Shown: piece by piece, positions 39,086 to 56,522 of the stretch
Layout of the letters: every line of letters begins with the position of its first letter
Position numbering within the stretch: position 1 is the stretch's first letter
Assembly (NCBI GenBank): GCA_003193925.1
Contig: PSPG01000005.1
Coordinates: forward strand, 17,840 to 81,839
Direction: 5' to 3'
From: Candidatus Thalassarchaeum betae
Lineage (GTDB): Archaea; Thermoplasmatota; Poseidoniia; Poseidoniales; Thalassarchaeaceae
DNA length: 64,000 nt
Notes under the pieces: model-generated
Database searches by the model: none
Told to the model about the DNA's origin: nothing
Seen by the model: only the letters and a program-made list of their open reading frames with translations
Translations under genes and position numbers: made by a program

Positions 39086-39131
39086 GGGAAACCGCTCGGC
39101 TTAAGCGATTAACGCGGGTGGCCAGAGCGCT

Positions 39132-39218
39132 GCGGCAGTCGCATAGCCTGGCCATTGCGCTGGATTGCTAATCCAGTGGTGTTTCACCTCGGGAGTTCGA
39201 ATCTCCCCTGCCGCGCCA
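39132..39218 (+). tRNA. tRNA-Ser(GCT), long variable arm, encoded CCA
   Basis: Acceptor GCGGCAG/CTGCCGC, anticodon arm CTGGA-TTGCTAA-TCCAG, T-arm GGGAG-TTCGAAT-CTCCC, discriminator G followed by CCA. Confidence 0.96.
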
Positions 39219-42770: not shown

Positions 42771-43880
42771 ATGGATCTGGAGCGTCACGACTTCCAGCTC
42801 GACGAGCTCGTCGAGAGAATCAAGGCGAACGACAACAGGCTGGTGGCACTGCAGGTCCCCGAGGGCCTCAAGATGCAGGCCCTCGAGATGATGGACACCA
42901 TCGAGGACGGATCGGGAGCGCAGGTCATCCTGGCCGCTGACCCGTGCTACGGCGCGTGTGACCTCGTCCACGACAAGATGCGGTCGATGGGCGTCGAGTT
43001 GGTGGCCCACATGGGTCACAGCCAGATGAACATCGACTCTGGCATGCCGACGCACTTCATCCCCGTCACCTACGACGGTGACCCGGAGTTGGCCCCGGCC
43101 CTCCCCTTCCTGGAGCGGCATCGGGCAATCGCCCGATCCCGACTGGACTCGGTAGCGCAGGAAGAGGAGTTGGATGATGCCGCTGCGAAGCAGCGCTTCC
43201 TCGATGCGGTCGGGCGCGTGGCCCCCCTGACGGGCACGAGGCTCGGACTGGTGGGCTCGATACAGCACCTCCACCTCCTGCCCGATTTCAAGGAGAGGCT
43301 CGAGAAGGCGGGCTTCGAGGTGGAGATACCGTCGGGGGGCGAGAGGCTCACTTTCCCCGGTCAGGTGCTCGGATGCAACTACTCGGGGGACGACCCCTCG
43401 ATCGGTCACTACCTCTTCCTCGGCTCGGGCGACTTCCACCCCATCGGCCTGGTCCTCCACACCGGCAAGCCCCTCGCCATGCTGGACCCATACAGCGGGG
43501 ATGCGACCGAGATGTCCTTCGAGCGCATCGAGCGCATCCTGCGCCAGCGCTTCGGTCTAATAATGGCCGTCGACGGGGCCAAGACGTTCGGCATCCTGAT
43601 TGGTGAGAAACCGGGGCAGATGCGCCGCAACCTAGCCATCCGGATGAAGCGGCTTCTCGAGAAGCACGGTCGCAAGGGGTACCTGCTGGCGCTGGACCAC
43701 ATCAGCCCAGACCTCATCGACTTCTACCCGGTTGACGCCTTCGTCAACACCGCCTGCCCGCGAATAGCGATCGACGACTCGGTGAAGTACGCCAAGCCGC
43801 TCATCACCCCGTACGAGCTCGAGGTCGCGCTCGGTGAGAAGGAATGGCAGAGCGGATACCAGTTCGACGAGATTCCTTGA
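42771..43880 (+). CDS. dph2: Diphthamide synthesis enzyme Dph2
   Basis: LQVPEGLK, PCYGACD, GQVLGCN, FVNTACPRIAIDD. Confidence 0.93.
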   Translation: MDLERHDFQLDELVERIKANDNRLVALQVPEGLKMQALEMMDTIEDGSGAQVILAADPCYGACDLVHDKMRSMGVELVAHMGHSQMNIDSGMPTHFIPVTYDGDPELAPALPFLERHRAIARSRLDSVAQEEELDDAAAKQRFLDAVGRVAPLTGTRLGLVGSIQHLHLLPDFKERLEKAGFEVEIPSGGERLTFPGQVLGCNYSGDDPSIGHYLFLGSGDFHPIGLVLHTGKPLAMLDPYSGDATEMSFERIERILRQRFGLIMAVDGAKTFGILIGEKPGQMRRNLAIRMKRLLEKHGRKGYLLALDHISPDLIDFYPVDAFVNTACPRIAIDDSVKYAKPLITPYELEVALGEKEWQSGYQFDEIP

Positions 43881-43927
43881 GCACGCGCGCGCAGCAGACG
43901 GGCGTATGCGTGCGCGCTGCTCCAAAT

Positions 43928-45130
43928 ATGTCTAATAACGATGTGAGCACGAGTCGCATGATGGCCGACTACCTCGACAGAATCGGAGCGGGCAAGGTCC
44001 TGCTGGACAGAGCGCCGTTCTCGTTCGACTGGACCCCGCCCGCTTTGGTCGGCCGCGATACCGAGCTGCGCGAGTTGGCCTCGATGTTCACCGGGATGGA
44101 GAGTCACGGGGTCAGCAGCAGGGCCGTGATCACCGGCCCAGTGGGCTCCGGGAAGACCGTGATGACGCGACGCTTCGGAGAGGACTTGCAGCGCATGCTC
44201 GACGGGCGCAGGAAGATCATCCTAGCGCACGTCAACTGCCGCAACCACCCGAGCACCTCGCAGGTCCTGCAGCAGATCGTGCTCTCCCTCGACTCCGGTC
44301 ACCCCGAGCGCGGCTTCAGCTCCGGCGAGATCATCCAGTCCATCCGCCGCAACCTGAATGCGCACGACAGTCACCTGCTGCTGGTCCTCGACGAGGTCGA
44401 TGCCCTGATCCGAAGGGAGAAATCCGACCTCATCTACAAACTGCTGAGGATCGACGAGGGGCGGGACCAACAGGGCTCCCTCTCGCTGATGCTGGTAAGC
44501 CAGGACGTCTCTATGCTGAAGTTGTTCGAGGCCGCCATCATCTCGCGCCTCGGGGAGAGCAACATCCTGAATCTGCAGCCCTACGACGCGCCTGCGCTGA
44601 TGGGCATCGCCAGACAGCGCTACGAGGAGGCCTGCAAGCCTGGCTCAGTGGGCGATGACACTCTGGCCAAGATCGGCAGGTTCGCCGCTGACACCGGAGA
44701 CGCGCGCCTCGCGATCGAGCTGCTGGAGGCGGCGATTCGCCGTGCTGAGAAGGCGGGTAGGGGTGATGTCCTGGTCGAGGACGTGCGGCCCAGCACCCTG
44801 CGGGCGGCCTCGGTCGAGCCGAGTCAGGTCGACAACCTGAGCAAGCACCAGAAGCTGGTCCTGCTCGGAATCTGCAGGCGCCTGAAGAAGGCCGACGAGA
44901 TCTCCAGCGGCGACGCCCGGAAGCTGTACAACCTGGTTTGCGAGGAGTTCGAGGCTAGGCCTCGGAGCTACACCACGTTCTGGAAGCACCTCAAGGCGCT
45001 CGAGACCCAAGGGCTGATCGAGACGAGGACGGCGAACGCATCGGTGGGGAGGGGCAGGACCCAGCACATCACGATGACCAACACCGCACCCGCTGTCCTA
45101 GAGAGTCGGATTGAGAAGGAATTCCAATGA
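43928..45130 (+). CDS. cdc6: Orc1/Cdc6 replication initiator
   Basis: LVGRDTE, Walker A GPVGSGKT, VNCR, Walker B LVLDEVD, PYDAPAL, GDARLAIELL and a C-terminal winged helix. Start set at ATG 43928. Confidence 0.93.
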   Translation: MSNNDVSTSRMMADYLDRIGAGKVLLDRAPFSFDWTPPALVGRDTELRELASMFTGMESHGVSSRAVITGPVGSGKTVMTRRFGEDLQRMLDGRRKIILAHVNCRNHPSTSQVLQQIVLSLDSGHPERGFSSGEIIQSIRRNLNAHDSHLLLVLDEVDALIRREKSDLIYKLLRIDEGRDQQGSLSLMLVSQDVSMLKLFEAAIISRLGESNILNLQPYDAPALMGIARQRYEEACKPGSVGDDTLAKIGRFAADTGDARLAIELLEAAIRRAEKAGRGDVLVEDVRPSTLRAASVEPSQVDNLSKHQKLVLLGICRRLKKADEISSGDARKLYNLVCEEFEARPRSYTTFWKHLKALETQGLIETRTANASVGRGRTQHITMTNTAPAVLESRIEKEFQ

Positions 45131-45197
45131 TGCGAAAAGCGCCGTAGGCGCTTCCGAACCGCTCTTATAGGGGCCTTTTGTCGGGAGGCCGTCCGAG

Positions 45198-45704
45198 GTG
45201 ACCGAAATGGCAGCAGAGCAGGCCTTCAAGGCAGTGATCAACGACACTTCGCCATCGTCTGGCGGACGCGCCTTCGGCATCGACATCACCGGCTCGAACT
45301 ACAATCACTTCCTCGGCAAGAGGATCGGCGACACCGTCGACGGCATGTTCGTCGGCGAGGGGGACAAGTCACTCTCCGGCTACAAGCTGGAGATCACCGG
45401 CGGCTCTGACCTCACGGGCCGGCCCATGCGCCCCGAGCTCGCTGGCAGCGGCGTCAAGTCTGTGCTCATCACCGCTGGCATCGGATACAAGGGCAAGCGC
45501 TACGTCAAGAAGAGAGGCAAGATCTACCGGTACAAGTACGACGGTCTTCGCAGGCGACGAAACCTTCGCGGCAACGTGATCAGCCAAGACACCCGCCAGA
45601 TCAACCTGAAAATCACCGAGGCGGGCAATCGCTCCCTCGACGCCATCTTCGGCCTCGTCGAGGAGGCCCCCCCTGTCGAGGAGCCCTCTGGAGAAGAGGA
45701 GTGA
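45198..45704 (+). CDS. rps6e: 30S ribosomal protein eS6 (S6e)
   Basis: FLGKRIGD, YKLEITGGSD..GRPMR, GLRRRRNLRGNVI, QINLK. Confidence 0.93.
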   Translation: MTEMAAEQAFKAVINDTSPSSGGRAFGIDITGSNYNHFLGKRIGDTVDGMFVGEGDKSLSGYKLEITGGSDLTGRPMRPELAGSGVKSVLITAGIGYKGKRYVKKRGKIYRYKYDGLRRRRNLRGNVISQDTRQINLKITEAGNRSLDAIFGLVEEAPPVEEPSGEEE

Positions 45705-46970: not shown

Positions 46971-47339
46971 ATGGTTCGCGTCCTAGTCGACGCGTGCGGA
47001 TGGGCCGCGATGACGGATGCAGGATTGAATCTGGACGAGGGGATGAAGGACGTCGTCGGCGAGGCAGACCTCGTTGTCCTCGATAGCGTGCAGAGTGAGC
47101 TTGAGCTGCTGGTGCAGCAAAGGAGGAATCTCCTGCTCGAGCTCCTCGCAAGGCGCTCCGAGAGGATTCCAGACATCGAAGGAATGAGCCATCCGGACGA
47201 GATGCTGGTCCACTTGTCGAGTGCCAACGGCTGGCCGGTGCTGACGGTCGACCGTCGATTGAAAGAGAAGCTGGTGAACTCCGGGGGCTCGTACATCGAG
47301 GTCACCTCGGGTCGGGCCCTGCGGCTGGTCGGCCTTTAG
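46971..47339 (+). CDS. PIN-domain protein (Fcf1-like), typical eif2g neighbour
   Basis: VLVDAC...V..EL, PDEMLV, VLTVDRRL. Confidence 0.8.
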   Translation: MVRVLVDACGWAAMTDAGLNLDEGMKDVVGEADLVVLDSVQSELELLVQQRRNLLLELLARRSERIPDIEGMSHPDEMLVHLSSANGWPVLTVDRRLKEKLVNSGGSYIEVTSGRALRLVGL

Positions 47340-47629
47340 GGCAGAGTGAACAGCCGGTCGTCCCCATGACCGTCCAGAAGGCCGATTCTTACCGCGGCGT
47401 CGAGCCAAGCGTGGGAGTAGTTGATCGCGCCGAAGGCGCTGACCAAGTCCCCTGACTCCATGAAGTGGCGAGCGTCCGCTGCGTAGTCATCGCACATCCT
47501 CATCATCGAAGTCAGTCGCTGCTCGTCTTCAGCACCCTGTGCGCATGGAGTGGCTTTGGCTCTAGCCTCGGCGGTGAGAGCAAGGTGCTCTTCGATCTTC
47601 TCCCGCGTCACAGTGGCACTGTCGGACAT
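47336..47629 (-). CDS. DUF357-family protein
   Basis: YAADARHF...GDLVSAFGAINYSHAWLDAAVRIG. Confidence 0.85.
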   Translation of the reverse strand: MSDSATVTREKIEEHLALTAEARAKATPCAQGAEDEQRLTSMMRMCDDYAADARHFMESGDLVSAFGAINYSHAWLDAAVRIGLLDGHGDDRLFTLP

Positions 47630-47637
47630 TGGAGCAC

Positions 47638-49413
47638 CTAGGTCAATTCGAGTTCCAAGGATGCCGCATGACTGAGCTTGAACAGCCTCGTCCTGCCCTG
47701 CTTGCGCACCGAGAGCAAACCCGCCCTTCGCAAGCCGTTGTATATCTGCGACAATCGGGGGCGACCCACCTCGAGGAGCGCCTGCAACTCGGGGTCAGAT
47801 GGCGAAACCTCACGCTTTCCTGCGGCTGCTAGGACCGTGTGTTCCGAATCCGAGAGGCTGGCCGCGCGAGTGCGGTCCAGCGGCTCGTCATCGTCCCACC
47901 TGGGTCCCATGATGATCGGTATCTTGGGTGGCACCGGGTCTGGCTCGGGCTCGACGAAGACCTCCTCGGGCTGGTCGTTCACCAGAGGCGGGGCCTGCTC
48001 GATGTCGAACACCGGCGCAGGAGGCGCCTGCGGCTCCGCATCCAAGTCGGGTAGCGATGAGCCTAGGCTGGGGTCCACCGTCCAAAGAGCGCCCTCGGCT
48101 GCCATCACAGGCTGCTCTTCGCTCGGGGCGACGGAGGTGTCTGGCTTGGCCTCGGTGACGAACGCAGGCTGTGGTTTCGGCTGCGAGGGAGCCTTGACGG
48201 GGATCGGAGTCAGTTGAGGGCGCCTCTCGGCATAGGTGATCGGAGTCTCGTCGAGGCCCTCTGGCATCGAATCGCTGACCCTGACTGACCTGTTGCGCAA
48301 GCCGCTGAATCCGCTGACACTCTGCGGCTGCTCGGGCGGCTCAGTGCCCTCTTCCATGAGCACGAACGAGTCTAGGGTCTCCTGTTCGCCATGAGTGGTG
48401 ACGGTTTCTGCGGGAGCGGTCTCCTCGGCCTCGTCCTCCGAGTCCTCGTCCCAGACGTCTTCAGGGTCGGGGAACTCCTCGGTCTCCTCGTCCCACATGT
48501 CATCCGGCTCGACATCCCAGTCATCCTCCTCGGGTTCCGGCTCCGGCTCAGGCTCTGGGGTGTCGCCCTCTACCAGAAGCTCCTCCTCGGGTTCCTCCTC
48601 CACCGTGACGAGTGGTTTCTGCCACCCCACCAGTCGCTCCAGCGTACCCTGAGAGCCTGCGTCACGCCTCTCGTCGACGAGGTCACGGAGCAGGCGGACC
48701 ACTTCACGGGGGTTGCCCCCTGTATTGCTGTGGATGGCCCTGAGCAGATCCGGCTTGATGTTCCACCTCTCCCTTGCCTTCCTGCGCACCAGATTATCGC
48801 TCATTTTCTGTATCTGAGGCGCAGAAAGGCCCTCAAGACGCTCAGGGGGGTCGAAGATCTCGAGCACCTCCTCGTCTAGGGAAGTCAGTTGCGCGGGCGT
48901 GAGGGAGACCACCACCAGCGCCCTCAGACGCTGCAGAAGCGGTGCCATTCGGGTGAGGAAGTCGTTGATCTGGACGCTGGAGGGGTAGTCCAAGGCAATC
49001 AGCGGCAGGGGACCCGTGCCCTGCTCTAGAGTCTCGATCAACTGCTCGCAGAGCTGTCCGATGGAAGGAGGCACGTCGTATCCGACGAAGTTGATGGCAA
49101 TCTCGTGCATGACGGAGTTCACCGGATCCTCTTCGGGCCAGTACTGGCCGACGAACTTCTTGTTCACCTGAGACGACAGGGCGTTGATCAGCGAAGTACG
49201 GCCACTGCCTCTCTCCCCGACCAAGAGTATCAACCGGGGAGATTCAGAGATGACATGCTCGCGCAATCTGGTAAGAAGGGAATCTCGCCCCACTATGTCC
49301 TGAGCCCGCGTGGACTCAATAGGTCGGAGTTCGAAGGGGTTGCCCCTCAGAGGAGGTAGGTCGAGCAGAGAAACTGCTGCTCCATCCATTGCTCGAGCAG
49401 CGATTTTTCTCAT
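47638..49413 (-). CDS. Degenerate AAA+ (AAA_16/ExeA/Cdc6-like) domain, acidic Pro-rich linker and C-terminal winged helix
   Basis: NPF...IVGRD, Walker A-like GERGSGRTS, Walker B-like IALDYP, TGGNPREVVRLL; C-terminal LSDSEHTVL...VGRPRLSQIYNGLRRAGLLSVRKQGRTRLF. Confidence 0.75.
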   Translation of the reverse strand: MRKIAARAMDGAAVSLLDLPPLRGNPFELRPIESTRAQDIVGRDSLLTRLREHVISESPRLILLVGERGSGRTSLINALSSQVNKKFVGQYWPEEDPVNSVMHEIAINFVGYDVPPSIGQLCEQLIETLEQGTGPLPLIALDYPSSVQINDFLTRMAPLLQRLRALVVVSLTPAQLTSLDEEVLEIFDPPERLEGLSAPQIQKMSDNLVRRKARERWNIKPDLLRAIHSNTGGNPREVVRLLRDLVDERRDAGSQGTLERLVGWQKPLVTVEEEPEEELLVEGDTPEPEPEPEPEEDDWDVEPDDMWDEETEEFPDPEDVWDEDSEDEAEETAPAETVTTHGEQETLDSFVLMEEGTEPPEQPQSVSGFSGLRNRSVRVSDSMPEGLDETPITYAERRPQLTPIPVKAPSQPKPQPAFVTEAKPDTSVAPSEEQPVMAAEGALWTVDPSLGSSLPDLDAEPQAPPAPVFDIEQAPPLVNDQPEEVFVEPEPDPVPPKIPIIMGPRWDDDEPLDRTRAASLSDSEHTVLAAAGKREVSPSDPELQALLEVGRPRLSQIYNGLRRAGLLSVRKQGRTRLFKLSHAASLELELT

Positions 49414-49421
49414 TCTTAATA

Positions 49422-49592
49422 TTCACGCATTTTCACGCTTCCCAGAGGGCGATTTAACGCATTAAAGCGATTTTCCGAGAGGTCTTGGTGATGCTACTGC
49501 CTCCAGTACATCGATTGAAAACAAGTCCGTTAACGCTTTTCTAACGCTTTTTCGATGCGTTAACGATGCGTTAATGGCCAAATTAACGCTTT
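49422..49592. repeat. AT-rich cluster of about 8 TTAACGC/TTCACGC-like motifs in both orientations
   Basis: Forward copies at 49422, 49432, 49454, 49530, 49541 and 49583. Reverse copies (GATGCGTTAA) at 49554 and 49565. Hand count for 49381-49620 is about 45% GC. Confidence 0.8.
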
Positions 49593-49694
49593 TTTCGGAG
49601 TCGTCTCGCGACCTTCCAAGGGCCCTCATGAGGTGTTTAGGCATCATATCACAAAATGTTAGAAGCCGGGCTCACCGAGCCTCAACCGACACGC

Positions 49695-50990
49695 ATGCCA
49701 GTAGACAGCAGCCGCTTGGAGGGATTCTACAGGCTCTCGGTTTCTGAACGCCGGGAGAAGTTGGCGGAGATAGCCGGCCTCAGCCCGGAGCAGGTGGAAG
49801 CCTGGTCATCCACAGGAGAACTGTCCGAGGACGCTGCAGACAGGATGATCGAGAATGTCATCGGAACCTACTCCCTGCCGATTGGGGTTGCGACGAACTT
49901 CATCATCGACAATGAGCACTACCTGATCCCATTTGTTCTCGAGGAGCCGAGCGTCGTGGCAGCCGCCAGCAACATGGCGAAGCGCTGCCACGCCAAAGGA
50001 GGATTCACATCGAACAACGACGAGCCGGTGATGATCGGGCAGATCCAGGTCGTCGGATGCGAGAATCCAGAGGATGCGAGGGACTCAATCATGGCCGCGA
50101 AGGCCGATTTAGTCGATTCTTGCAACGAAGTTGACCCGATCCTGGTCAAATTCGGGGGCGGATGCAGGGATGTCCAAGCCAGAATCATAGAAACCGAGTC
50201 CGGACCCATGGTAATAGTGCACATTCTGGTGGATTGCAGGGACGCTATGGGTGCGAATGCCGTCAACACGATGGCCGAGACGATAGCTCCGAAAGTGGAG
50301 GAAATCACCGGTGGGACGGTCATACTGCGAATAATCAGCAACCTCGCTGTTCACAGGTTAGCGCGGGTGAGCGCGGTCTTCACACCAGCTGAGCTGGCGG
50401 ACAAGGGCGACGCTAGTCAGGGCTCCGAAGTCATAGAAGGGGTACTGCAAGCCTATCACTTCGCCAAGGCTGATCCGTTCCGCGCCACGACCCATAACAA
50501 GGGCATAATGAACGCGATATCACCCATAGCCATCGCATGCGGGCAGGACTGGAGGGCTGTCGAGTCCGGTGCCCACAGCTTCGCATCGCACGAGAGGACG
50601 TACGGCTCACTGACCCACTGGGAGAAGGACCCCGATGGCAATCTGGTCGGCTCGATAGAGCTGCCCATGGCAGTGGGGCTGGTCGGCGGTGCCGTTCGGG
50701 TCCACCCAGCCGCACAGGCCAACGTAGCCCTGCTGGGCATCTCATCGGCCAACGACCTAGCGAAGGTCATGGCCGCAGCTGGACTGGCTCAGAACCTCGG
50801 TGCCCTGCGTGCCCTCGCTACCGTGGGCATCCAGGTCGGCCACATGAAGCTCCACGTGCGCAACATGGCCGTCACGGCCGGGGCCGAGGGCGGAGAGGTC
50901 GACATCGTGGCAGCCCGGATACGGGCGCACGGTGGCAGGATAACGCAGAAGGCGGTCGAAGAGGAGCTCGCGAAACTCAGGTCGGAGTAA
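49695..50990 (+). CDS. hmgA: Class II HMG-CoA reductase
   Basis: IENVIG, EEPSVVAAAS, DAMGANAVN, THNKGIMN, GHMKLH. Start at ATG 49695 or 49656. Confidence 0.95.
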   Translation: MPVDSSRLEGFYRLSVSERREKLAEIAGLSPEQVEAWSSTGELSEDAADRMIENVIGTYSLPIGVATNFIIDNEHYLIPFVLEEPSVVAAASNMAKRCHAKGGFTSNNDEPVMIGQIQVVGCENPEDARDSIMAAKADLVDSCNEVDPILVKFGGGCRDVQARIIETESGPMVIVHILVDCRDAMGANAVNTMAETIAPKVEEITGGTVILRIISNLAVHRLARVSAVFTPAELADKGDASQGSEVIEGVLQAYHFAKADPFRATTHNKGIMNAISPIAIACGQDWRAVESGAHSFASHERTYGSLTHWEKDPDGNLVGSIELPMAVGLVGGAVRVHPAAQANVALLGISSANDLAKVMAAAGLAQNLGALRALATVGIQVGHMKLHVRNMAVTAGAEGGEVDIVAARIRAHGGRITQKAVEEELAKLRSE

Positions 50991-51614
50991 TCACTCCTCG
51001 ACTTCGAGGGGTTCGCTCTCCACTTCTTCCTCCTCGGAGAATTCGCTGATGGTCAACTGCTCGTCGGGCGCCAGAGAAGCGGCCAATTGAGCGCTTGTCA
51101 GACCCATCTTGGCGGCCTCCTTCCTGAACCAGGTACGGACCTTGCGATACTCGACTTCGGGGCAACCGAAGTACTCAGCGAAGCGGCGAGTGGTGGTCAG
51201 CCGGCGAGTCAGTCCGTCTCGCCGGCGGCCGATCAGCCCGGTGTTGGCCAAGTCGCGGACGTGGTCGTACGCCCTCTGTCCGAGCATGTCGACCAGCTGG
51301 GACTGCGCCATGGGCTGGTGGTAGGCTATCAGGGCGGCTGCTGGCAGCAGTCGCTGGGGGATGTCAGCCCGGAACGACTCGGGCAGGTGAGGGGAGAGGC
51401 TGGGCCGGACCTCGAAGATCCAGCGTCCGGCGACCTCCGTCAGCTGAAGGGCGGAGTCGCGGCGCCGACGAATCGTCACTTGCAGGTCCTTCAGGGCGGA
51501 TTGGACTTCTGCCTGTGGCCTCTCCAGCAACTCAGCCAGCTCTGCGACCGACATCGAGCGCCCGGCACCGAACAGTATGGCTTCGAGGACGGTGGAGAGG
51601 GATGTCTCAGACAC
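50991..51614 (-). CDS. scpB: SMC complex kite subunit ScpB
   Basis: LEAILFG, AALIAYHQP, RAYDHVRDL, TTRRFAEYFG. Confidence 0.92.
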   Translation of the reverse strand: MSETSLSTVLEAILFGAGRSMSVAELAELLERPQAEVQSALKDLQVTIRRRRDSALQLTEVAGRWIFEVRPSLSPHLPESFRADIPQRLLPAAALIAYHQPMAQSQLVDMLGQRAYDHVRDLANTGLIGRRRDGLTRRLTTTRRFAEYFGCPEVEYRKVRTWFRKEAAKMGLTSAQLAASLAPDEQLTISEFSEEEEVESEPLEVEE

Positions 51615-52617
51615 CGGTGAATCCCTCCATAACCGTCGTCTTGGGGTTGAGTCTATCTGTCAGAGCGACGAAGTCGTCCTCATCCTCCCAGAGGTCCTTC
51701 AGCATGATTCTTCCATTGCGGCCCTTCTCCTGAGTGAGGTCTGCGTAGCCGCGGTTCGTCAGGAACAGCGCCGAGACCAGAGCGGTCACTTGAGCCTCCG
51801 CCTCCGCCTCGTCATGCTTGACCCCGGCGTCGATCGAGTTAGCCATCATCTCCTCTACAAGCGTACTCAGGTCCACAGGCTTGCCCCCTCCCTCTGAACG
51901 GGCCCTCAGGGCCTCCCAAGTCCTGCGTAGGTCTCCCTCGAGATCCTCGGCGTGGAGGCTGCCGCTGAATCTCGTCCTCGCACGAGCGAGGGCCTCGCGG
52001 CGCTCCTTGGCGATCTGCTCGCGCAGGCGCTGCTCCTCTGCCAGCCTGCCTGCGGCTTGGAGGCCCATGAGGAGCTCTCCTAAGGTCACAGGGCGGCTCT
52101 CGTCGCGGTGGATCCTGCCCTCGAACATCTGAGGCAGGACCTCATCAGCAGCCCCGGTGAGGACTCCCACGGAGAAGTTGTAGTCGGCGTCGTCGAAGTC
52201 GGTCTCCCAGCCGCCGTCGAAGTCCCAGACCTCCTCCTCTTCGTAACCGAAGGCTCGCTCCTGGCGCTCCATCAGTGTGAATGCCTGTCCGCGTAGTATG
52301 GACCATGCCATCCTGATGAGCCTGCCACAGGTCGGCAGGTCGATGTTCTCTGACTCCTTGATCCTCTCGTTGAACATCTCGAGGAAGCTCGAGAGGTCGA
52401 CGTCCCATGGGTCGAGGTCGCTCGATTGGAAGAGTTGGAAGACCAGTGCCACCGAGCGGTCGAAGGGGTCGATGAGGAACTGGTGCTCGGCCTCCTCGAG
52501 AGTCGCGAGTTCCACGAGCCTGTCCAGGTAGCGGCTCGTCTCGAGGTCGGCCTCTCCGCCGAGCATCCTCACCACTATGTCGTCGCGCAAGGCCCGCCCG
52601 TCGAACACAGCCATCAC
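51607..52617 (-). CDS. scpA: Kleisin ScpA
   Basis: LDPWDVDL, GRLIRMAWSILR, RPVTLGELL, VSALFL. Lies between smc and scpB. Confidence 0.88.
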   Translation of the reverse strand: MMAVFDGRALRDDIVVRMLGGEADLETSRYLDRLVELATLEEAEHQFLIDPFDRSVALVFQLFQSSDLDPWDVDLSSFLEMFNERIKESENIDLPTCGRLIRMAWSILRGQAFTLMERQERAFGYEEEEVWDFDGGWETDFDDADYNFSVGVLTGAADEVLPQMFEGRIHRDESRPVTLGELLMGLQAAGRLAEEQRLREQIAKERREALARARTRFSGSLHAEDLEGDLRRTWEALRARSEGGGKPVDLSTLVEEMMANSIDAGVKHDEAEAEAQVTALVSALFLTNRGYADLTQEKGRNGRIMLKDLWEDEDDFVALTDRLNPKTTVMEGFTGV

Positions 52618-55600
52618 TCGGCCTCCTTCTGCTCGGCCTCGGGCTCGGGCTCAGGATCATCCGGAGCCTGTTCGACGGCATCACGCTCGACGATGTCCTC
52701 AGTCCAATCCTCGGTTCGCTCACGAAGCGATTCAATGGTGCCGCCCTCTGCCTCGATCTCCTCATGCGCATCGCCCTCGGTGACTTCCACTCCGGCCCGC
52801 TCGGCCAAGCCACCGAGACTCTTGGGGGCGCCTAGTGGCTCGGGAGCCCGGGGCATGTCCTCTGGGTCGGGTAGCTCGGGCATCTCTGCTCGCTCTGCCT
52901 CGGCCTCGGCCTGAGCCTTTCGCTCCGCCTCGAACTCCTCGCTCATCTCAAGGGCTGCTGCCCTGTCGAAGTCGGTGATCAGGCGGCTGCGTCCGTCACC
53001 GGCGTGGGTGATCCCAATGTGGTGGTCGGCGAGGATCAGGCTGACCTTTCGCAGAGTGACCATCATGAATTGGGCTCGCTGGCTGCGCATCCTGCACAGG
53101 GTCGCGATGCGCTCCGCGTTGAACGGGTCGAGGTTCTGGTCGACCTCGTCTAGGTAGTAGAACGGGCCCGGCTCGTAGTCCTGGATCGCGAAGATGAGAG
53201 CGAGGGCGGCCATCGACTTCTCGCCGCCCGAGAGCTGGCTCCTCCGGGTGTTCTTGCTTTTACCAGGAGGTACGCAGTCCATCTCCAAGCCGCCATCGAA
53301 GGGGTTCTTCGGGTTCTCCATACGGAGTTTGCCACTGCCGTACGGCTGCAGTATCCCATAGACTCTCGAGAAGTTTTTGTTGACATGATCGAACACCGCC
53401 ATCAGACGGGTCTTGCGCTCGTCCTCCAGCTGCTCCGCTATGGATACCAGCTGGTCGCGTCGGTCGCGCAGCAGCTTGCCGTCCTCTACGAGGCCGGCGA
53501 TTCGCTCTACGGCGGTGTCGTACTGCTCGATGGCGAGCATGTTGACATCGCCGAGATGACCGAGGCGGCGCTCGAGCCCCTGCACGCTCTTCTCCGCCTC
53601 GGCCACAGTCGGCAGTTGCACATCCGGCGATGGGATGCCGATCTCAGAGGCCTCTAACTCGGCCACGATCTCATCCACCGCTTCGTGCTTCTGCTGGATT
53701 TGTAGGTTCAGATCCTCTATGCGGGCTGTCAGGGTCTCTCTCTTCTGGGATAGTGTATCCACCGAGGCGCGCAGGCTGGCGCGCTCGTCGACGATCTCGT
53801 CTCGTCGCTCCTTGAGCGCGTTCTGCTCCTCGTTGAACTGGGATACCTGCTCCCCGAGGTCAACCAGTTTTTCCTCGGCTTCGGTGATGGCCTCATCGAG
53901 CTTGGTGATGGCTGCCTCAGCCTCGGCGGCGAGTTCCTTCTTCTTGTCGATCTGGCGCCGGAGGTCCTCCACTCGGTCAGCGAGTATCCTCAGACGCTCG
54001 TTGCCGTTGGATATCGCTGACTCGGAGGCGAGTCTCTCTCGCCCGGCCTCGGTCATGGTGCGCTCGGCATCACGCAGCTTCTGCGACAGGTGGTCGGGCG
54101 CGTGCTCCTGTAGGGTCTGTGCGGCCGCGGCCCGCTCGGACACGGCCTGCTCGTGGGCCTCTCTGGCCTCCTCTGCCTCTGTCCTCGAATCTGTGTGGGC
54201 GGACTCGCACCTCCGGAATTCCTTCATCGCCTCGACGACCTTCTTGCGAACGTCTGCGACGGTTTTCTGCGCCCGCTCGAGGTCTGCCTTCCAATTGCGC
54301 AGGCGCAGGGAGTGGTCGCTGTCGTCGAGGCCGTGAATCCTATCTCTAAGGGTCTGCTGGTTGGTCCGCAGCTCCCTCAGCGCGGCCTCGACGGTGGAGT
54401 AGATCAGGTTGGCTTCTTCGACGGCGGCCTCGAGCCTGTCCAGGCTGGAGGAGACCGAGCCACCGCCGAAGGCATTGCGGTTGGTCCTGGATGCCGAGCC
54501 ACCGGTCATGGCGCCCGAGCTCTCGATGACCGAGCCGTCGAGGGTGACCAGTCGGACACCGCCCATGTTGCGACGGGCGATGCCCATCGACTGGACGAGG
54601 AGGGTGTTGCGCCCTGCGTACCTGACCGCAGTCTCGACCTCTGAGTCGTAGTCGAGAAGGTCGTGGGCGAAGCCGATGACGCCGGGATTGTCGGCGACTA
54701 TCAGCGAGCGCCCCTGGGGTCGGCTGACTCTGAGTTTGTTGAGGGGCAGGAAGGTTGCCCTGCCGCCGCCGTTCTTCCTCAGCCAGCCTATGCACTTGGC
54801 GGCGACGTCATCATCGGTTACGACGATGCTCCTCAAGCCGGCTCCGAGTGCGTTGGACAGAGCCCCCTCGTGAGCCGGGTCCCTTGGCGCTGTGAGTTCT
54901 CCGAGGGAACCCAGTATGCCATTTATCTCCCCGCTCTGGCGAAGTCTGGTGAGTGCTGCTAGAGTGACTGCCGAGCCTGGAGTGTTGGCCCGCTCCTCAT
55001 GGCGGGCACGGGCCTTGTTCAGCTCCCTCTCTGCGTCTCGGACCTTGATCTCGGAGCGGTCACGGTCCTCGACCAGCGTCGCCTCCTGTCTCTGCAGTCT
55101 GCGCAACTCCTCGGCCAGGGAAGCCCGATCCGCCTCGGGCTCGTCGCTCTGCAGGTCCTCCCCTACAAGTTCGAGGTCGTCACGGACCATCGTGGCCTCC
55201 TCGAACTCCGCCTCGAAGTCGGCCAGTTTGGCCGAGGAGATCTGCGCCGTCTGCTCTGCCCGGTCAGCCTCGAGTCGAGCCTGAGCATGGCTAGCGTGGG
55301 CTGCGTCGACTGCCTCGGTGGCCTTACCGAGGACGCGCGTCAGATCGCGACCGTGCTTGTCACCGGACTCGATGGCCTCGCGGGCGGCCGCCTCGTCCTC
55401 GGCGGCCTGTTTATGTGACTGGATGGCCGCCTCGAGCGCGCCACTGGCATCTTTGAGGGAGCCTTCGGCGTCTGTGCGTGCCGACTCGGCTCGCTCGAGC
55501 TCGTCCCCGAACTCCTCGGCTTCGCCTCCGGCATCCTCGATGATCCTGCGCTGGTCGCCTTTCCTGTCGCCGCCGGTCTCGATCTCGATCTCGTACTGGC

Positions 55601-56522
55601 GAATCTGCTCCAGCAGTTTCCGGGCCTCGCCGCTCATGATCTCGTTGATGTCCGAGTCGACCTTGACGAGCTCCTCGTCGAATGCCAGGAGGCCCTTGTT
55701 GCCGTCGGTGATCCTCTCGCCGATCTCATCTATCTCATCGAGGTAGCGCGAGCGCTCCTCGCCCAGCAGTCGTACCTCGTCGAGGCGGTTTCTGTGCCTC
55801 GACTGGTGGAGAGTAATCCTAGAGGCGTCCAACTCGTCCTTCAGCTGCTTGAATTTCAGAGCATGCTCGCGCTCCTTGGCGAGGTCCCTCAGGCGCTTCT
55901 TCTGCTCGGCCTCGAACAGGTCGATGGTCCCGATGTTATTCTCGACGTGCTTGCGCTGGGTGCTGGCGCGGCGGATCTCGTCGTCGTAAGCGGTGACGCC
56001 CGCGACCTCCTCGAGCACGCCGCGCCGCTTGTACGGGGTCATCGTAGCGAGTTTCGTGACGTCGCCCTGCTGGACGATGTTGTAGCCTTCTGCGCGCAAG
56101 CCTGCTTCGGCCAAGATGCGTCGCATCTCGGTGGCCGTGGACGGATTGTCGTTGATTCTGTACGAGGAGATGGGGTCGCCCTTCCTACCGAGCCTGACAG
56201 AGCGGGTGAAGCTGACCTCGTCGGTGTCGACCATCAGCCTCCTGCGACCGTCGAACTCCGGGGTGTTGGAGAAGACGAGAGTGGCGGACATGTGCTTGGC
56301 TGGCCTGCCACGCTTGCCGCCGTTGAATATCAACTGGGTCACATTGGCGGCCCTGATCGACTTGGTGGACTTGGGTCCGAGCACGAATTGGATGGCATCG
56401 AGGGAGTTCGACTTGCCCGATCCGTTGGGCCCGGTTATGGCCGTGAATCCCTCTTCGAGTGGGATTGTGACTTCGCCTGCGAATGACTTGAAGTTCTCTA
56501 GTTCCATTCGCAATAGACGCAT
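52614..56522 (-). CDS. smc: Chromosome segregation protein SMC
   Basis: ENFKSF, GPNGSGKSN, VQQGDV, hinge GGRATFLPL/VTLDG..SGAMTGG, LSGGEKS, LDEVD, long coiled coils. Confidence 0.97.
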   Translation of the reverse strand: MRLLRMELENFKSFAGEVTIPLEEGFTAITGPNGSGKSNSLDAIQFVLGPKSTKSIRAANVTQLIFNGGKRGRPAKHMSATLVFSNTPEFDGRRRLMVDTDEVSFTRSVRLGRKGDPISSYRINDNPSTATEMRRILAEAGLRAEGYNIVQQGDVTKLATMTPYKRRGVLEEVAGVTAYDDEIRRASTQRKHVENNIGTIDLFEAEQKKRLRDLAKEREHALKFKQLKDELDASRITLHQSRHRNRLDEVRLLGEERSRYLDEIDEIGERITDGNKGLLAFDEELVKVDSDINEIMSGEARKLLEQIRQYEIEIETGGDRKGDQRRIIEDAGGEAEEFGDELERAESARTDAEGSLKDASGALEAAIQSHKQAAEDEAAAREAIESGDKHGRDLTRVLGKATEAVDAAHASHAQARLEADRAEQTAQISSAKLADFEAEFEEATMVRDDLELVGEDLQSDEPEADRASLAEELRRLQRQEATLVEDRDRSEIKVRDAERELNKARARHEERANTPGSAVTLAALTRLRQSGEINGILGSLGELTAPRDPAHEGALSNALGAGLRSIVVTDDDVAAKCIGWLRKNGGGRATFLPLNKLRVSRPQGRSLIVADNPGVIGFAHDLLDYDSEVETAVRYAGRNTLLVQSMGIARRNMGGVRLVTLDGSVIESSGAMTGGSASRTNRNAFGGGSVSSSLDRLEAAVEEANLIYSTVEAALRELRTNQQTLRDRIHGLDDSDHSLRLRNWKADLERAQKTVADVRKKVVEAMKEFRRCESAHTDSRTEAEEAREAHEQAVSERAAAAQTLQEHAPDHLSQKLRDAERTMTEAGRERLASESAISNGNERLRILADRVEDLRRQIDKKKELAAEAEAAITKLDEAITEAEEKLVDLGEQVSQFNEEQNALKERRDEIVDERASLRASVDTLSQKRETLTARIEDLNLQIQQKHEAVDEIVAELEASEIGIPSPDVQLPTVAEAEKSVQGLERRLGHLGDVNMLAIEQYDTAVERIAGLVEDGKLLRDRRDQLVSIAEQLEDERKTRLMAVFDHVNKNFSRVYGILQPYGSGKLRMENPKNPFDGGLEMDCVPPGKSKNTRRSQLSGGEKSMAALALIFAIQDYEPGPFYYLDEVDQNLDPFNAERIATLCRMRSQRAQFMMVTLRKVSLILADHHIGITHAGDGRSRLITDFDRAAALEMSEEFEAERKAQAEAEAERAEMPELPDPEDMPRAPEPLGAPKSLGGLAERAGVEVTEGDAHEEIEAEGGTIESLRERTEDWTEDIVERDAVEQAPDDPEPEPEAEQKEAE

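What the first reader, a model, noticed from the sequence alone, without database searches (positions are those of the whole stretch)
47638..49413. Degenerate AAA+ / acidic linker / winged-helix protein next to the motif array: possible second initiator-like or origin-binding factor
Seen: Walker A has Arg in place of Lys (GERGSGRT) and Walker B lacks the catalytic Glu (IALDYP), while NPF..VGRD and GGNPR are retained. About 250 residues of acidic, Pro-rich disorder separate this domain from a C-terminal winged helix. Known: AAA+ plus winged helix is the Orc1/Cdc6 architecture, and ATPase-degenerate AAA+/WH subunits exist in eukaryotic ORC. Inference: an ATPase-dead DNA-binding partner that recognises the TTAACGC array in its own upstream region, possibly linking Cdc6 or SMC to the site.
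Basis: partly seen in the sequence, partly recalled or inferred. Interest (0 to 1): 0.7.

Follow-up and report, generated by a model that had tools for sequence, protein, structure and literature searches.

The report
Box-array-linked AAA+/winged-helix regulator of MGII archaea
This gene encodes an undescribed protein found in Marine Group II archaea (a hydrolysis-crippled ATP-binding domain, a long acidic floppy linker and an ArsR-type DNA-binding domain) that always sits beside a rigidly conserved array of TTAACGC boxes covering its own promoter, so it is most likely a self-regulating DNA-binding switch; a role at the replication origin is neither shown nor excluded.

Summary
ORF 47638-49413(-) (true start probably Met9, ATG at 49389, 583 aa) has three parts. 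The first is an AAA+-like N-domain with Walker A GERGSGRT (Arg in place of Lys) and Walker B IALDYP (no catalytic Glu). The second is a 237-residue acidic, proline-rich disordered linker. The third is a C-terminal winged helix.

These deviations are conserved across a family of more than 900 proteins seen only in Poseidoniales. In 76 of 76 testable genomes, and in 4 distant family members, the gene faces HMG-CoA reductase across a 240-440 bp spacer. That spacer holds the same TTAACGC box array with fixed 11-bp phasing, and the boxes are almost absent from the surrounding 10-15 kb.

By fold, the winged helix is ArsR/SmtB-type (HlyU, SmtB), not a Cdc6 winged helix. The N-domain matches ORC/Cdc6 no better than NB-ARC, RFC, MuB or TnsC. 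Two boxes abut the TATA-like element of the gene's own promoter.

Best reading (confidence 0.5): a nucleotide-binding, non-hydrolysing, oligomerising transcription regulator that binds its own operator array and probably also controls HMG-CoA reductase. The origin-factor reading is not excluded (about 0.2). This spacer is the only AT-rich noncoding stretch in 64 kb, lies 4.3 kb from cdc6, and no canonical ORB is present. DNA binding itself is untested.

The parts
47638..49389 (-). Coding sequence of the family member (583 aa from Met9; the open frame runs on to an upstream ATG at 49413)
   Evidence: P0001: 98% identical, 583 aa; Met9 invariant; TATA-like box about 30 bp upstream of Met9. Metatranscriptome contigs cover parts of the gene body.
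48625..49371 (-). N-terminal AAA+-like nucleotide-binding domain with helical lid (res 15-263)
   Evidence: AlphaFold pLDDT about 85. Foldseek matches NB-ARC, Orc1, Cdc6, MuB, RFC and TnsC at E about 1e-7. Pfam AAA_16 scores 31.4 bits, below the 32.6 cut-off.
49195..49218 (-). Deviant Walker A GERGSGRT (Arg72 where Lys is canonical)
   Evidence: G66, G69, G71 and S74 are invariant; position 72 is Arg, or Lys in a few lineages.
48982..48999 (-). Deviant Walker B IALDYP (Asp142 kept, catalytic Glu replaced by Tyr)
   Evidence: Asp142 is invariant family-wide and the next residue is Y/F/H/L/other, never Glu.
48706..48720 (-). GGNPR lid motif (sensor-2-like position)
   Evidence: G233 is nearly invariant family-wide. 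R236 is conserved only within the Thalassarchaeaceae-type members; R243 and D247 are more widely conserved.
47914..48624 (-). Acidic, Pro-rich intrinsically disordered linker (res 264-500) carrying conserved short motifs
   Evidence: pLDDT <50. 28% D+E, 17% P, net charge -56. Conserved islands are visible.
48286..48312 (-). Linker motif GFSGLRNRS (G-[FM]-x-G-L-x-x-R-x-R); Leu372 and Arg375 are conserved across the whole family
   Evidence: R375 invariant, L372 at least 90% across MGIIa and MGIIb members; short helix 373-376 in the model.
48487..48525 (-). Acidic-tryptophan motif DDWDVEPDDMWDE
   Evidence: W299, D300, P303, D305 and W307 nearly invariant in MGIIb-type members; weaker in distant members.
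48061..48096 (-). Linker motif EGALWTVDPSLG (Trp444 nearly invariant family-wide)
47650..47901 (-). C-terminal ArsR/SmtB-type winged helix-turn-helix (res 505-588); predicted recognition helix VGRPRLSQIYNGL at 47731-47769
   Evidence: AlphaFold pLDDT 91.6. Foldseek matches HlyU, SmtB, SqrR, CzrA and NolR at TM about 0.66 and 24-30% identity. Weak NCBIfam ArsR/SmtB hit. It is the most conserved domain of the protein (36-74% identity, against 25-64% for the N-domain and 12-38% for the linker).
49390..49655 (.). Divergent intergenic region between the gene and HMG-CoA reductase; the most AT-rich stretch of the 64-kb window
   Evidence: minimum GC 0.42 against about 0.62. Phylogenetic footprint.
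49415..49422 (-). TATA-like element ATATTAAG of the gene's own promoter, about 30 bp upstream of Met9 (implies a leaderless mRNA)
   Evidence: The junction CGT[GT]AA[CT][AG]TTA[AT] is present in 74 of 77 loci.
49422..49441 (+). Boxes G1 and G2 (TTCACGCATT, TTCACGCTTC), 10 bp apart, abutting the TATA-like element at the BRE position
   Evidence: The tandem pair is present in 66 of 77 loci.
49454..49463 (+). Box F (TTAACGCATT)
49530..49550 (+). Boxes E and D (TTAACGCTTT, CTAACGCTTT), 11 bp start to start
   Evidence: The direct pair is present in 73 of 77 loci.
49554..49574 (-). Boxes C and B (TTAACGCATC twice), 11 bp start to start, in opposite orientation to D and E
   Evidence: The direct pair is present in 77 of 77 loci.
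49567..49589 (.). B-A palindrome GCGTTAAT-N6-ATTAACGC (box A is at 49583-49592), of a size that could fit a winged-helix dimer
   Evidence: CGTTAA-N8-TTAACG is present in 76 of 77 loci.
47336..47629 (-). DUF357 gene, 8 nt downstream on the same strand; probable operon partner, syntenic in every locus examined
49656..50990 (+). HMG-CoA reductase, divergently transcribed across the box array; a universal neighbour and a candidate co-regulated gene

Best explanation
The gene encodes a Poseidoniales-specific, sequence-specific DNA-binding regulator. Its ArsR/SmtB-type winged helix recognises the TTAACGCWTY boxes packed into the divergent promoter region that it shares with HMG-CoA reductase.

Two boxes sit at the BRE position against the TATA-like element of its own, leaderless promoter. 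Binding there would exclude TFB/TBP and give negative autoregulation. The invariant five-box cluster on the reductase side (a palindrome plus two 11-bp-phased direct pairs in opposite orientation) would nucleate a multi-subunit complex that also governs the reductase promoter.

The N-terminal AAA+-like domain keeps a phosphate-binding P-loop, the Mg-binding Asp and a sensor-1-like Thr, but lacks the catalytic Glu. It most likely binds nucleotide without appreciable hydrolysis and acts as a ligand-dependent oligomerisation switch, as in STAND/LAL regulators or the non-initiator Orc1-2.

The 237-residue acidic linker lets several winged helices of one oligomer reach boxes of either orientation. 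It may also compete with DNA as a mimic, and it carries conserved short motifs for partner proteins.

Shown: architecture, conservation of the deviant motifs, fold assignments, universal gene-array linkage, box/TATA overlap. Inferred: DNA binding by this protein, the direction of regulation, nucleotide binding, oligomerisation.
For: (1) The gene and the array are inseparable. The array lies upstream of the gene in 76 of 76 testable loci, with 2-6 exact boxes in 240-400 bp against about 0 in the other 10-15 kb. It is also present in four distant members including Poseidoniaceae.
(2) The array's internal geometry is fixed: B-C pair 77/77, D-E pair 73/77, A-B palindrome 76/77, box-TATA junction 74/77.
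(3) The winged helix is an ArsR/SmtB repressor fold. It is the most conserved part of the protein, matching the near-invariance of the box across genomes of 38-68% GC.
(4) Boxes G1/G2 abut a TATA-like element about 30 bp upstream of the conserved Met9. That spacing matches other promoters in the window, for example S6e.
(5) A transcription-factor gene with its operator in its own divergent promoter is the commonest arrangement for winged-helix regulators (established knowledge). AAA+/winged-helix proteins acting as transcription factors have an archaeal precedent in Orc1-2 (PMC6061795, PMC9738581).
(6) The P-loop, Asp142 and Thr172 are conserved while Glu is never present, and Lys/Arg interchange at position 72. 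This points to retained ligand binding without catalysis.
(7) The gene is transcribed in marine metatranscriptomes.
Against: No binding data exist; the box-binding protein could be another factor. Five of the eight boxes lie 130-190 bp upstream of the gene's transcription start, which is far for an archaeal operator. Their distance to the HMG-CoA reductase start varies from about 35 to 200 bp between lineages, which is awkward for precise promoter control. In some Poseidoniaceae the box next to the TATA element is not evident. The whole SMC ... Cdc6 neighbourhood is syntenic, so adjacency to the reductase is not specific evidence of co-regulation. Order-wide invariance of an eight-box architecture is more than simple autoregulation usually needs.
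Confidence: 0.5

Rival explanations
1. Origin-associated factor. The box array is the MGII replication origin, or an element of it. The protein is a DnaA-like or ORC-like, ATP-bound but non-hydrolysing origin-marking subunit that cooperates with the nearby Cdc6.
For: The spacer is the only clearly AT-rich noncoding stretch in 64 kb. It lies 4.3 kb from cdc6, which itself has no flanking noncoding DNA. No canonical ORB (TCCANTGGAAA) occurs in the window or in 81 loci beyond chance, although sister lineages use canonical ORBs (PMC4153887). Multi-box arrays in both orientations with helical phasing resemble DnaA-box or ORB clusters, and dnaA-type genes are autoregulated from such boxes (established knowledge). 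The AAA+ fold hits include Orc1/Cdc6, with 24% identity to Aeropyrum ORC1. Profile-profile comparison finds local similarity to MGII Cdc6 up to Walker A. Synteny with cdc6 is order-wide.
Against: The winged helix is ArsR-type, not Cdc6-type. Genes on both sides point toward the locus, the opposite of the usual co-orientation with forks. No GC-skew inflection is visible, although skew here tracks gene strand and 64 kb is too short to judge. The 70-bp E-F spacer is neither especially AT-rich in this genome nor free of other conserved elements. Boxes overlap a promoter. cdc6 is transcribed toward the site rather than away from it, unlike characterised archaeal origins (established knowledge).
Confidence: 0.2
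2. The boxes are bound by a different protein (Cdc6, or an unlinked transcription factor). The winged helix of this protein targets other DNA, or serves protein-protein contacts. The linkage would then reflect only shared promoter architecture in a frozen gene cluster.
For: No direct evidence ties this winged helix to these boxes. The entire neighbourhood is syntenic, so co-conservation alone is not proof. Poseidoniaceae encode an extra MarR/TFIIE-alpha-like winged-helix gene in the cluster.
Against: That extra gene is absent from the window lineage. The winged helix of this protein is near-invariant in its predicted recognition helix (R551, R553, S555, Q556, N559), in parallel with the invariant box. 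Boxes occupy this gene's own core promoter.
Confidence: 0.15
3. Centromere-like or SMC-loading site. The protein marks a chromosomal site next to smc-scpA-scpB, and its linker motifs recruit condensin, by functional analogy to ParB/parS.
For: smc-scpA-scpB lie immediately beyond HMG-CoA reductase in the window, in Poseidoniaceae and in many Thalassarchaeaceae. The site is a multi-box nucleation site, and the linker carries conserved motifs.
Against: In many loci ScpA/ScpB are not within 7 kb (L020-L022, L025, L031, L034-L036 and others), so this linkage is not universal. No ParB-like fold or CTPase is present. No interaction evidence exists.
Confidence: 0.07

Closest known systems
ArsR/SmtB family winged-helix repressors (HlyU, SmtB, SqrR, CzrA, NolR)
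   Same: The C-terminal 85 residues adopt the same fold, including the C-terminal helix (Foldseek TM about 0.66, 24-30% identity). There is a weak NCBIfam HTH_metalloreg hit. A conserved 8-N6-8 palindrome lies in the adjacent DNA. JGI annotators called some members 'ArsR family regulator'.
   Different: ArsR/SmtB proteins are about 100-residue stand-alone dimers that sense metals or persulfides. Here the domain ends a 583-residue protein, behind an AAA+-like domain and a 237-residue acidic linker. The score is far below the family cut-off (21 against 55 bits). No metal-site residues were examined. The target is an eight-box array rather than a single 12-2-12 operator.
Archaeal Orc1/Cdc6 initiators and the non-initiator paralogue Orc1-2 of Sulfolobales
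   Same: The order is AAA+ domain, then lid, then a C-terminal winged helix. Fold hits include 1fnn, 2v1u and 2qby. There is local profile similarity to MGII Cdc6 around (F)..P..LVGRD...GxxGSG[KR]T. The gene lies 4.3 kb from cdc6. Orc1-2 shows that such proteins can act as transcription regulators (PMC6061795, PMC9738581).
   Different: Walker A Lys is replaced by Arg and Walker B Glu by Tyr. There is no Cdc6 lid or Cdc6_C match, and TIGR02928 gives E=0.06. The winged helix is ArsR-type. A 237-residue disordered linker is inserted between lid and winged helix. The boxes are unrelated to ORB.
STAND / LAL-type P-loop transcription regulators (MalT, AfsR class; Pfam AAA_16, nSTAND1)
   Same: The best Pfam matches are AAA_16 (27 of 29 members) and nSTAND1 (10 of 29). 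The top Foldseek hit is an NB-ARC domain. The logic of nucleotide-dependent oligomerisation coupled to an HTH effector is shared.
   Different: There is no sensor repeat domain (TPR, WD40 or LRR). The effector is an ArsR winged helix rather than a LuxR/SARP HTH. The Walker motifs are degenerate. The scores are below Pfam cut-offs.
Bacterial DnaA with its DnaA-box arrays (functional analogy only)
   Same: An AAA+ module is tethered by a flexible linker to an HTH domain. Short boxes (7-10 bp) occur in both orientations, clustered next to the protein's own gene, and could serve autoregulation and possibly more.
   Different: There is no homology beyond the AAA+ fold. The domain order differs. No ATPase activity is expected. 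No evidence shows that the site is an origin.

Membership tests
Orc1/Cdc6 initiator family | Canonical Walker A GxxGxGK[ST] and Walker B hhhhDE supporting ATP hydrolysis | tested here: not met
   The motifs are GERGSGRT and IALDYP. Arg, or rarely Lys, occupies the Lys position and Glu is never present, across the family.
Orc1/Cdc6 initiator family | Significant match to family models (TIGR02928, Pfam Cdc6_lid, Cdc6_C) | tested here: not met
   TIGR02928 gives E=0.06 and 12 bits against a 181-bit cut-off. No Cdc6_lid or Cdc6_C hit is found. The neighbouring true Cdc6 scores 225 bits.
Orc1/Cdc6 initiator family | C-terminal Cdc6-type winged-helix domain | tested here: not met
   The Foldseek top 50 for the isolated domain are ArsR/SmtB/MarR-type regulators; none is a Cdc6/Orc winged helix.
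Orc1/Cdc6 initiator family | Initiator-specific motif (helical insertion between beta2 and beta3 of the AAA+ core) | tested here: inconclusive
   The model has two helices (97-110, 118-131) between strands 86-89 and 138-142. The hits include the initiator-clade members ORC, Cdc6, MuB and TnsC, but also RFC and NB-ARC. No residue-level comparison was made.
Orc1/Cdc6 initiator family | Binds origin DNA and loads MCM | not testable with these tools
   Needs biochemistry or replication profiling.
ArsR/SmtB winged-helix regulators | alpha1-alpha2-alpha3-alphaR-beta-beta-alpha5 fold | tested here: met
   The AlphaFold model has pLDDT 91.6. Foldseek TM is 0.63-0.69 and rmsd 2.2-2.6 A over 76-80 residues to HlyU, SmtB and CzrA.
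ArsR/SmtB winged-helix regulators | Sequence match at the curated family threshold | tested here: not met
   NF033788 scores 21.1 bits against a 55-bit cut-off. No Pfam HTH_5 or HTH_20 hit is found at E<=0.1.
ArsR/SmtB winged-helix regulators | Homodimer binding an inverted-repeat operator in or near its own promoter | tested here: inconclusive
   A conserved GCGTTAAT-N6-ATTAACGC palindrome (76 of 77 loci) and promoter-overlapping boxes exist. Binding and dimerisation are untested.
STAND / LAL P-loop regulators | STAND-type NTPase domain (AAA_16, NACHT or NB-ARC) at the curated threshold | tested here: inconclusive
   AAA_16 scores 31.4 bits against a 32.6-bit cut-off, and 27 of 29 members hit it below or near threshold. 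The NB-ARC domain of NRC1 is the top fold hit.
STAND / LAL P-loop regulators | C-terminal sensor repeat domain (TPR, WD40 or LRR) | tested here: not met
   Residues 264-500 are predicted disordered and no repeat domain is detected.

The most novel reading that the evidence does not exclude
The TTAACGC box array is the chromosomal replication origin of Marine Group II archaea, or its control element, and has replaced canonical ORB elements. This ATP-locked AAA+/winged-helix protein would be a lineage-specific second origin-recognition subunit. It would mark the site in a DnaA-like manner and use its conserved linker motifs (the invariant G-F-x-G-L-x-x-R, the acidic-Trp motif, and a clade-restricted PIP-box-like QETLDSFV) to recruit Cdc6, PCNA or SMC-ScpAB.
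Probability: 0.2. Interest if true: 0.85.

Novelty: new variant of a known kind. Interest (0 to 1): 0.5.

Why it matters
Poseidoniales are among the most abundant archaea in the surface ocean and have never been cultured, so almost nothing is known about how they control genes or replicate. This work defines a protein family seen here only in Poseidoniales, found at this locus in every Poseidoniales locus recovered, and not previously described. It also defines the family's probable DNA target at base resolution: eight boxes with fixed spacing, conserved across genomes of 38-68% GC.

That makes a concrete, culture-independent experiment possible, using recombinant protein and a 270-bp DNA fragment. 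If the protein is a regulator, it points to nucleotide-linked control of HMG-CoA reductase, the committed step of archaeal membrane-lipid synthesis. If the site proves to be the origin, it would be a non-ORB origin with a two-component initiator, which bears on how ORC-like assemblies evolved. The Arg-for-Lys, Tyr-for-Glu AAA+ domain is also a natural example of a conserved 'bind but do not hydrolyse' switch.

Tried and rejected
1. Canonical archaeal ORB search (TTCCAGTGGAAAC with up to 3 mismatches in the window; TCCANTGGAAA in 81 loci). Nothing beyond chance was found.
2. GC and AT skew in the window and in L081. Skew follows gene strand and shows no replication signal, so it is uninformative at this scale.
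3. Sequence search of the PDB with the full protein gave only noise. This included a spurious PCNA-chain hit in the linker.
4. Search for homologues in IMG/VR viral contigs found none.
5. A box-pair pattern in viral contigs gave 112+ hits. The few multi-box arrays (L166 next to a primase, L123 among head genes, L185) belong to ordinary tailed phages with no link to Poseidoniales, and were selected by the pattern itself.
6. The A-B palindrome pattern was run against metagenome contigs, returning 120 sampled hits. About 20 are this same locus. About 55 are an unrelated dispersed GCGTTAAT tandem-repeat element concentrated in one metagenome. The rest are isolated palindromes. No second Poseidoniales locus emerged, but the sample is small and biased.
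7. Rfam scan and RNA folding of the spacer found no RNA family. The fold z-score of -3.4 is explained by the inverted boxes.
8. A literature search for a described MGII origin or for this family found nothing.
9. The 830-bp gap next to cdc6 in L083 was considered as a possible origin. It looks like uncalled coding sequence without repeats.
10. The PIP-box reading of QETLDSFV. The motif is confined to part of the family, and the conserved core there is h-x-M-E-x-G-T-E-P-P instead. It is kept only as a side note.
11. The unknown 346-377-aa gene that follows the family member in Poseidoniaceae has no Pfam or PDB match.
Full report
WHAT IS THERE

The open reading frame 47638..49413 on the minus strand is real and encodes 591 residues.

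An AlphaFold model built on 53 homologues gives three parts:
- A confident N-terminal alpha/beta domain with a helical lid (res 15-263, pLDDT about 85).
- A disordered stretch (264-500, pLDDT <50).
- A confident C-terminal winged helix (505-588). Modelled alone, this domain reaches pLDDT 91.6.

The linker is 28% Asp+Glu and 17% Pro, with net charge -56.

One correction concerns the start codon. Translation most likely starts at Met9 (ATG at 49389). That Met is invariant, and many homologues begin there. The 98%-identical P0001 is 583 aa. The upstream ATG lies immediately downstream of a TATA-like element.

THE FAMILY

A word-indexed search found more than 931 relatives, none with an informative name; a few are labelled 'ArsR family regulator' or 'helix-turn-helix domain-containing protein'. 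A profile of the N-domain run against 1.84 billion cluster representatives found 91 clusters at E<=1e-10.

The distant members keep the whole architecture:
- A P-loop GxxGSG[R>K][TS]S.
- An invariant Walker B Asp that is never followed by Glu.
- An acidic linker.
- A linker motif G-[FM]-x-G-L-x-x-R-x-R, with Arg375 invariant and Leu372 in at least 90% of members.
- A nearly invariant Trp444.
- A C-terminal winged helix with invariant P538, S539, L547, R551, R553, S555, Q556, N559, G565 and R576.

All members whose origin could be traced are Poseidoniales. Close relatives of the window protein are Thalassarchaeum (MGIIb). The distant ones are Poseidoniaceae (MGIIa) or unnamed Poseidoniales.

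No specific Pfam family covers the protein. Only AAA_16 and AAA_22 hit, near or below threshold. The winged helix is the best conserved part: 36-74% identity to the window protein, against 25-64% for the N-domain and 12-38% for the linker.

FOLD COMPARISONS

For the whole model, Foldseek against the PDB returns many AAA+/STAND ATPases at E about 1e-7:
- The NB-ARC domain of NRC1.
- Drosophila, yeast and human Orc1 and Cdc6.
- Archaeal Cdc6/Orc1 (1fnn; 2v1u at 24% identity; 2qby).
- MuB, TnsC and RFC.

The N-domain is therefore an AAA+-type nucleotide-binding module with a lid. It is not specifically an Orc1/Cdc6 domain. Profile-profile comparison with the Poseidoniales Cdc6 proteins finds only a 61-column local match up to Walker A (84% probability, E 7e-6).

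The isolated C-terminal domain matches ArsR/SmtB repressors: HlyU, SmtB, SqrR, CzrA and NolR, at TM about 0.66, rmsd 2.2-2.6 A and 24-30% identity. No Cdc6-type winged helix appears in the top 50. The weak sequence hits agree with this (NF033788, NanR and HlyU).

THE DNA ARRAY

TTAACGC occurs 6 times in the window against 1.26 expected, and 5 of these lie within 49454-49589. With the extended consensus TTAACGCWTY and up to one mismatch, 8 of 9 window matches lie in 49422-49592.

This spacer is also the most AT-rich stretch of the entire window.

I oriented 80 Poseidoniales loci on the gene. The order Cdc6 - S6e - eIF2-gamma - PIN - DUF357 - gene - spacer - HMG-CoA reductase is universal wherever the contig reaches these genes. 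ScpB-ScpA-SMC follow in many lineages.

In all 76 loci where the spacer could be delimited, it holds 2-6 exact boxes within 240-400 bp. The remaining 10-15 kb hold none or one.

The internal layout is fixed:
- A palindrome GCGTTAAT-N6-ATTAACGC, in 76 of 77 sequences.
- A direct pair phased at 11 bp, in 77 of 77.
- A second direct pair in the opposite orientation, in 73 of 77.
- A spacer of about 70 bp, then another box.
- Two variant boxes (GCGTGAA) directly abutting a TATA-like ATTAAG/ATTATG element (junction present in 74 of 77).

That TATA-like element lies about 30 bp upstream of the conserved Met9. Other promoters in the window, for example S6e, show the same geometry. This implies a leaderless mRNA, with boxes at the BRE position.

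Four distant family members show the same synteny and the same kind of box cluster, again with 11-bp phasing. They come from a 2.06-Mb Poseidoniaceae contig, a 3.0-Mb contig of about 68% GC, and two shorter contigs.

The linkage is as strong as comparative genomics can make it.

INTERPRETATION

The most economical reading is a DNA-binding regulator that recognises the boxes in its own divergent promoter. The reasons are:
- The DNA-binding domain is of a repressor type.
- It is the most conserved part of the protein, in parallel with the invariant box.
- Boxes occupy the gene's own core promoter.
- A transcription-factor gene with an adjacent operator is the standard arrangement.

The AAA+-like domain keeps everything needed to hold a nucleotide: the P-loop glycines, Ser/Thr, Arg or Lys at position 72, the Mg-binding Asp142, and a sensor-1-like Thr172. 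It lacks the catalytic Glu throughout the family. I therefore infer nucleotide binding without meaningful hydrolysis, used as an oligomerisation or conformational switch. STAND/LAL regulators work this way, as does the non-initiator Orc1-2 of Sulfolobales, an AAA+/winged-helix protein that acts as a transcription regulator (PMC6061795, PMC9738581).

The long acidic linker would let several winged helices of one oligomer reach boxes in either orientation. It could also act as a DNA mimic. Its conserved islands look like docking motifs for partners. HMG-CoA reductase, across the array, is the obvious second target. All of this beyond the architecture and the linkage is inference. I give it 0.5.

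WHY THE ORIGIN READING STAYS OPEN (about 0.2)

- cdc6 in this window has no noncoding DNA on either side; the upstream diphthamide-synthase ORF overlaps its start.
- No canonical ORB is present anywhere in the window or in the 81 loci, although the sister order Methanomassiliicoccales uses canonical ORBs beside cdc6 (PMC4153887).
- The box spacer is the only AT-rich noncoding region nearby.
- An eight-box, helically phased, bidirectional array conserved across an entire order is more elaborate than simple autoregulation needs.

Against the origin reading:
- The winged helix is ArsR-type, not Cdc6-type.
- Genes on both sides are transcribed toward the locus.
- cdc6 points toward the site rather than away from it.
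- No unwinding element stands out.
- No skew signal is visible, although 64 kb is too short and skew here follows gene strand.

A condensin-loading or centromere role is weaker still. ScpA and ScpB are not within 7 kb in many lineages.

KNOWN FAMILIES

The protein is not a member of the Orc1/Cdc6 family. The Walker motifs, the family HMMs and the winged-helix type were all tested and not met. Its C-terminal domain has the ArsR/SmtB fold but not a threshold-level sequence match. Its N-domain sits near AAA_16/STAND models without the sensor repeats that define STAND regulators. It works most like a nucleotide-gated, oligomerising winged-helix regulator. As a family and as an architecture it appears undescribed (literature searches).

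OTHER EVIDENCE AND DEAD ENDS

Metatranscriptome contigs 95-99% identical to the gene cover parts of its body, so it is expressed. No transcript ends could be read. No RNA family or convincing RNA structure lies in the spacer. Viral and metagenome pattern scans returned only this locus, chance hits, phage iteron-like repeats and an unrelated dispersed repeat.

VERDICT

This is a new variant of a known kind (a nucleotide-binding-domain-coupled winged-helix regulator), with a precisely defined candidate operator. It is of moderate interest, and of high interest if the site proves to be the origin.

Noticed in passing
window 43844-45130 and flanks (42771-45198): The Orc1/Cdc6 gene has no flanking noncoding DNA. 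The upstream diphthamide-synthase-like ORF (42771-43880) overlaps its annotated start, and S6e follows after 67 nt. No canonical ORB (TCCANTGGAAA-type) occurs in the 64-kb window or in 81 related loci. The Poseidoniales origin is therefore either not ORB-based or not next to this cdc6.
   Followed up: partly
window 48361-48384 (res 344-351, QETLDSFV): A PIP-box-like motif (Q-x-x-L-x-x-F-V) sits in the disordered linker. It is conserved in the Thalassarchaeum-type members and P0120, but is replaced by unrelated sequence in other subfamilies. There the conserved core is h-x-M-E-x-G-T-E-P-P, just downstream.
   Followed up: partly
window 49464-49529 (spacer between boxes F and E): The roughly 70-bp spacer keeps its length across Thalassarchaeaceae. 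It contains two further partly conserved elements (CG-N4-5-TACTG and CTC[GT]GAA) that are not TTAACGC boxes. Their function is unknown.
   Followed up: no
L042, P0129, P0131, P0132, P0177, P0183/P0307, P0188: A minority of family members have Lys rather than Arg at the Walker A position (GSGKT/GIGKT) and still lack the Walker B Glu. The Arg/Lys interchange suggests the site still contacts phosphate.
   Followed up: partly
L081:11845-12885, L083:9823-10956, L084:6640-7686; L081:13166-13570: Poseidoniaceae-type loci carry an extra gene of 346-377 aa with no Pfam or PDB match, translationally coupled between the family member and DUF357. They also carry a small MarR/TFIIE-alpha-like winged-helix gene nearby. 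Both are absent from the window lineage.
   Followed up: partly
window 39109-39218: The only TTAACGC outside the array lies 17 nt upstream of a tRNA-Ser(GCT) gene (39132-39218), between convergent genes. It is probably a chance occurrence.
   Followed up: partly
window 34-47 kb versus 51-64 kb: Long ORFs left of the locus are almost all on the + strand, and those right of it almost all on the - strand. Transcription therefore converges on the 47-51 kb region. The same holds in the Poseidoniaceae locus L081.
   Followed up: no
L018 (PAQG01000020.1): This contig is labelled 'Acidimicrobiaceae bacterium' but carries the complete Poseidoniales synteny (Cdc6-S6e-eIF2-gamma-PIN-DUF357-gene-HMGR-ScpB-ScpA). 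It is almost certainly a mis-binned archaeal contig.
   Followed up: no
window 51607-52617: The 336-aa ORF in the ScpA position (between ScpB and a 1302-aa SMC, 52614-56522) has no Pfam hit at E<=0.1, so the kleisin of this lineage is very divergent.
   Followed up: no
L199-L316 (many contigs of metagenome Ga0209679), e.g. L212:120-180, L241:890-990: An unrelated dispersed repeat built of tandem and inverted GCGTTAAT units occurs on dozens of contigs of about 40% GC in one metagenome. It looks like the terminal repeats of a mobile element in another organism.
   Followed up: partly
L166:2690-2780, L123:2000-2055, L185:1730-1830: Tailed-phage contigs carry iteron-like arrays of the same heptamer at 11-bp (or 29-bp) spacing. 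One lies just downstream of a primase/helicase gene. No connection to Poseidoniales was found.
   Followed up: partly
window 49462-49647 (-): A 61-aa ORF lies entirely inside the box array. It is not conserved as coding sequence in the aligned spacers and is probably spurious.
   Followed up: partly
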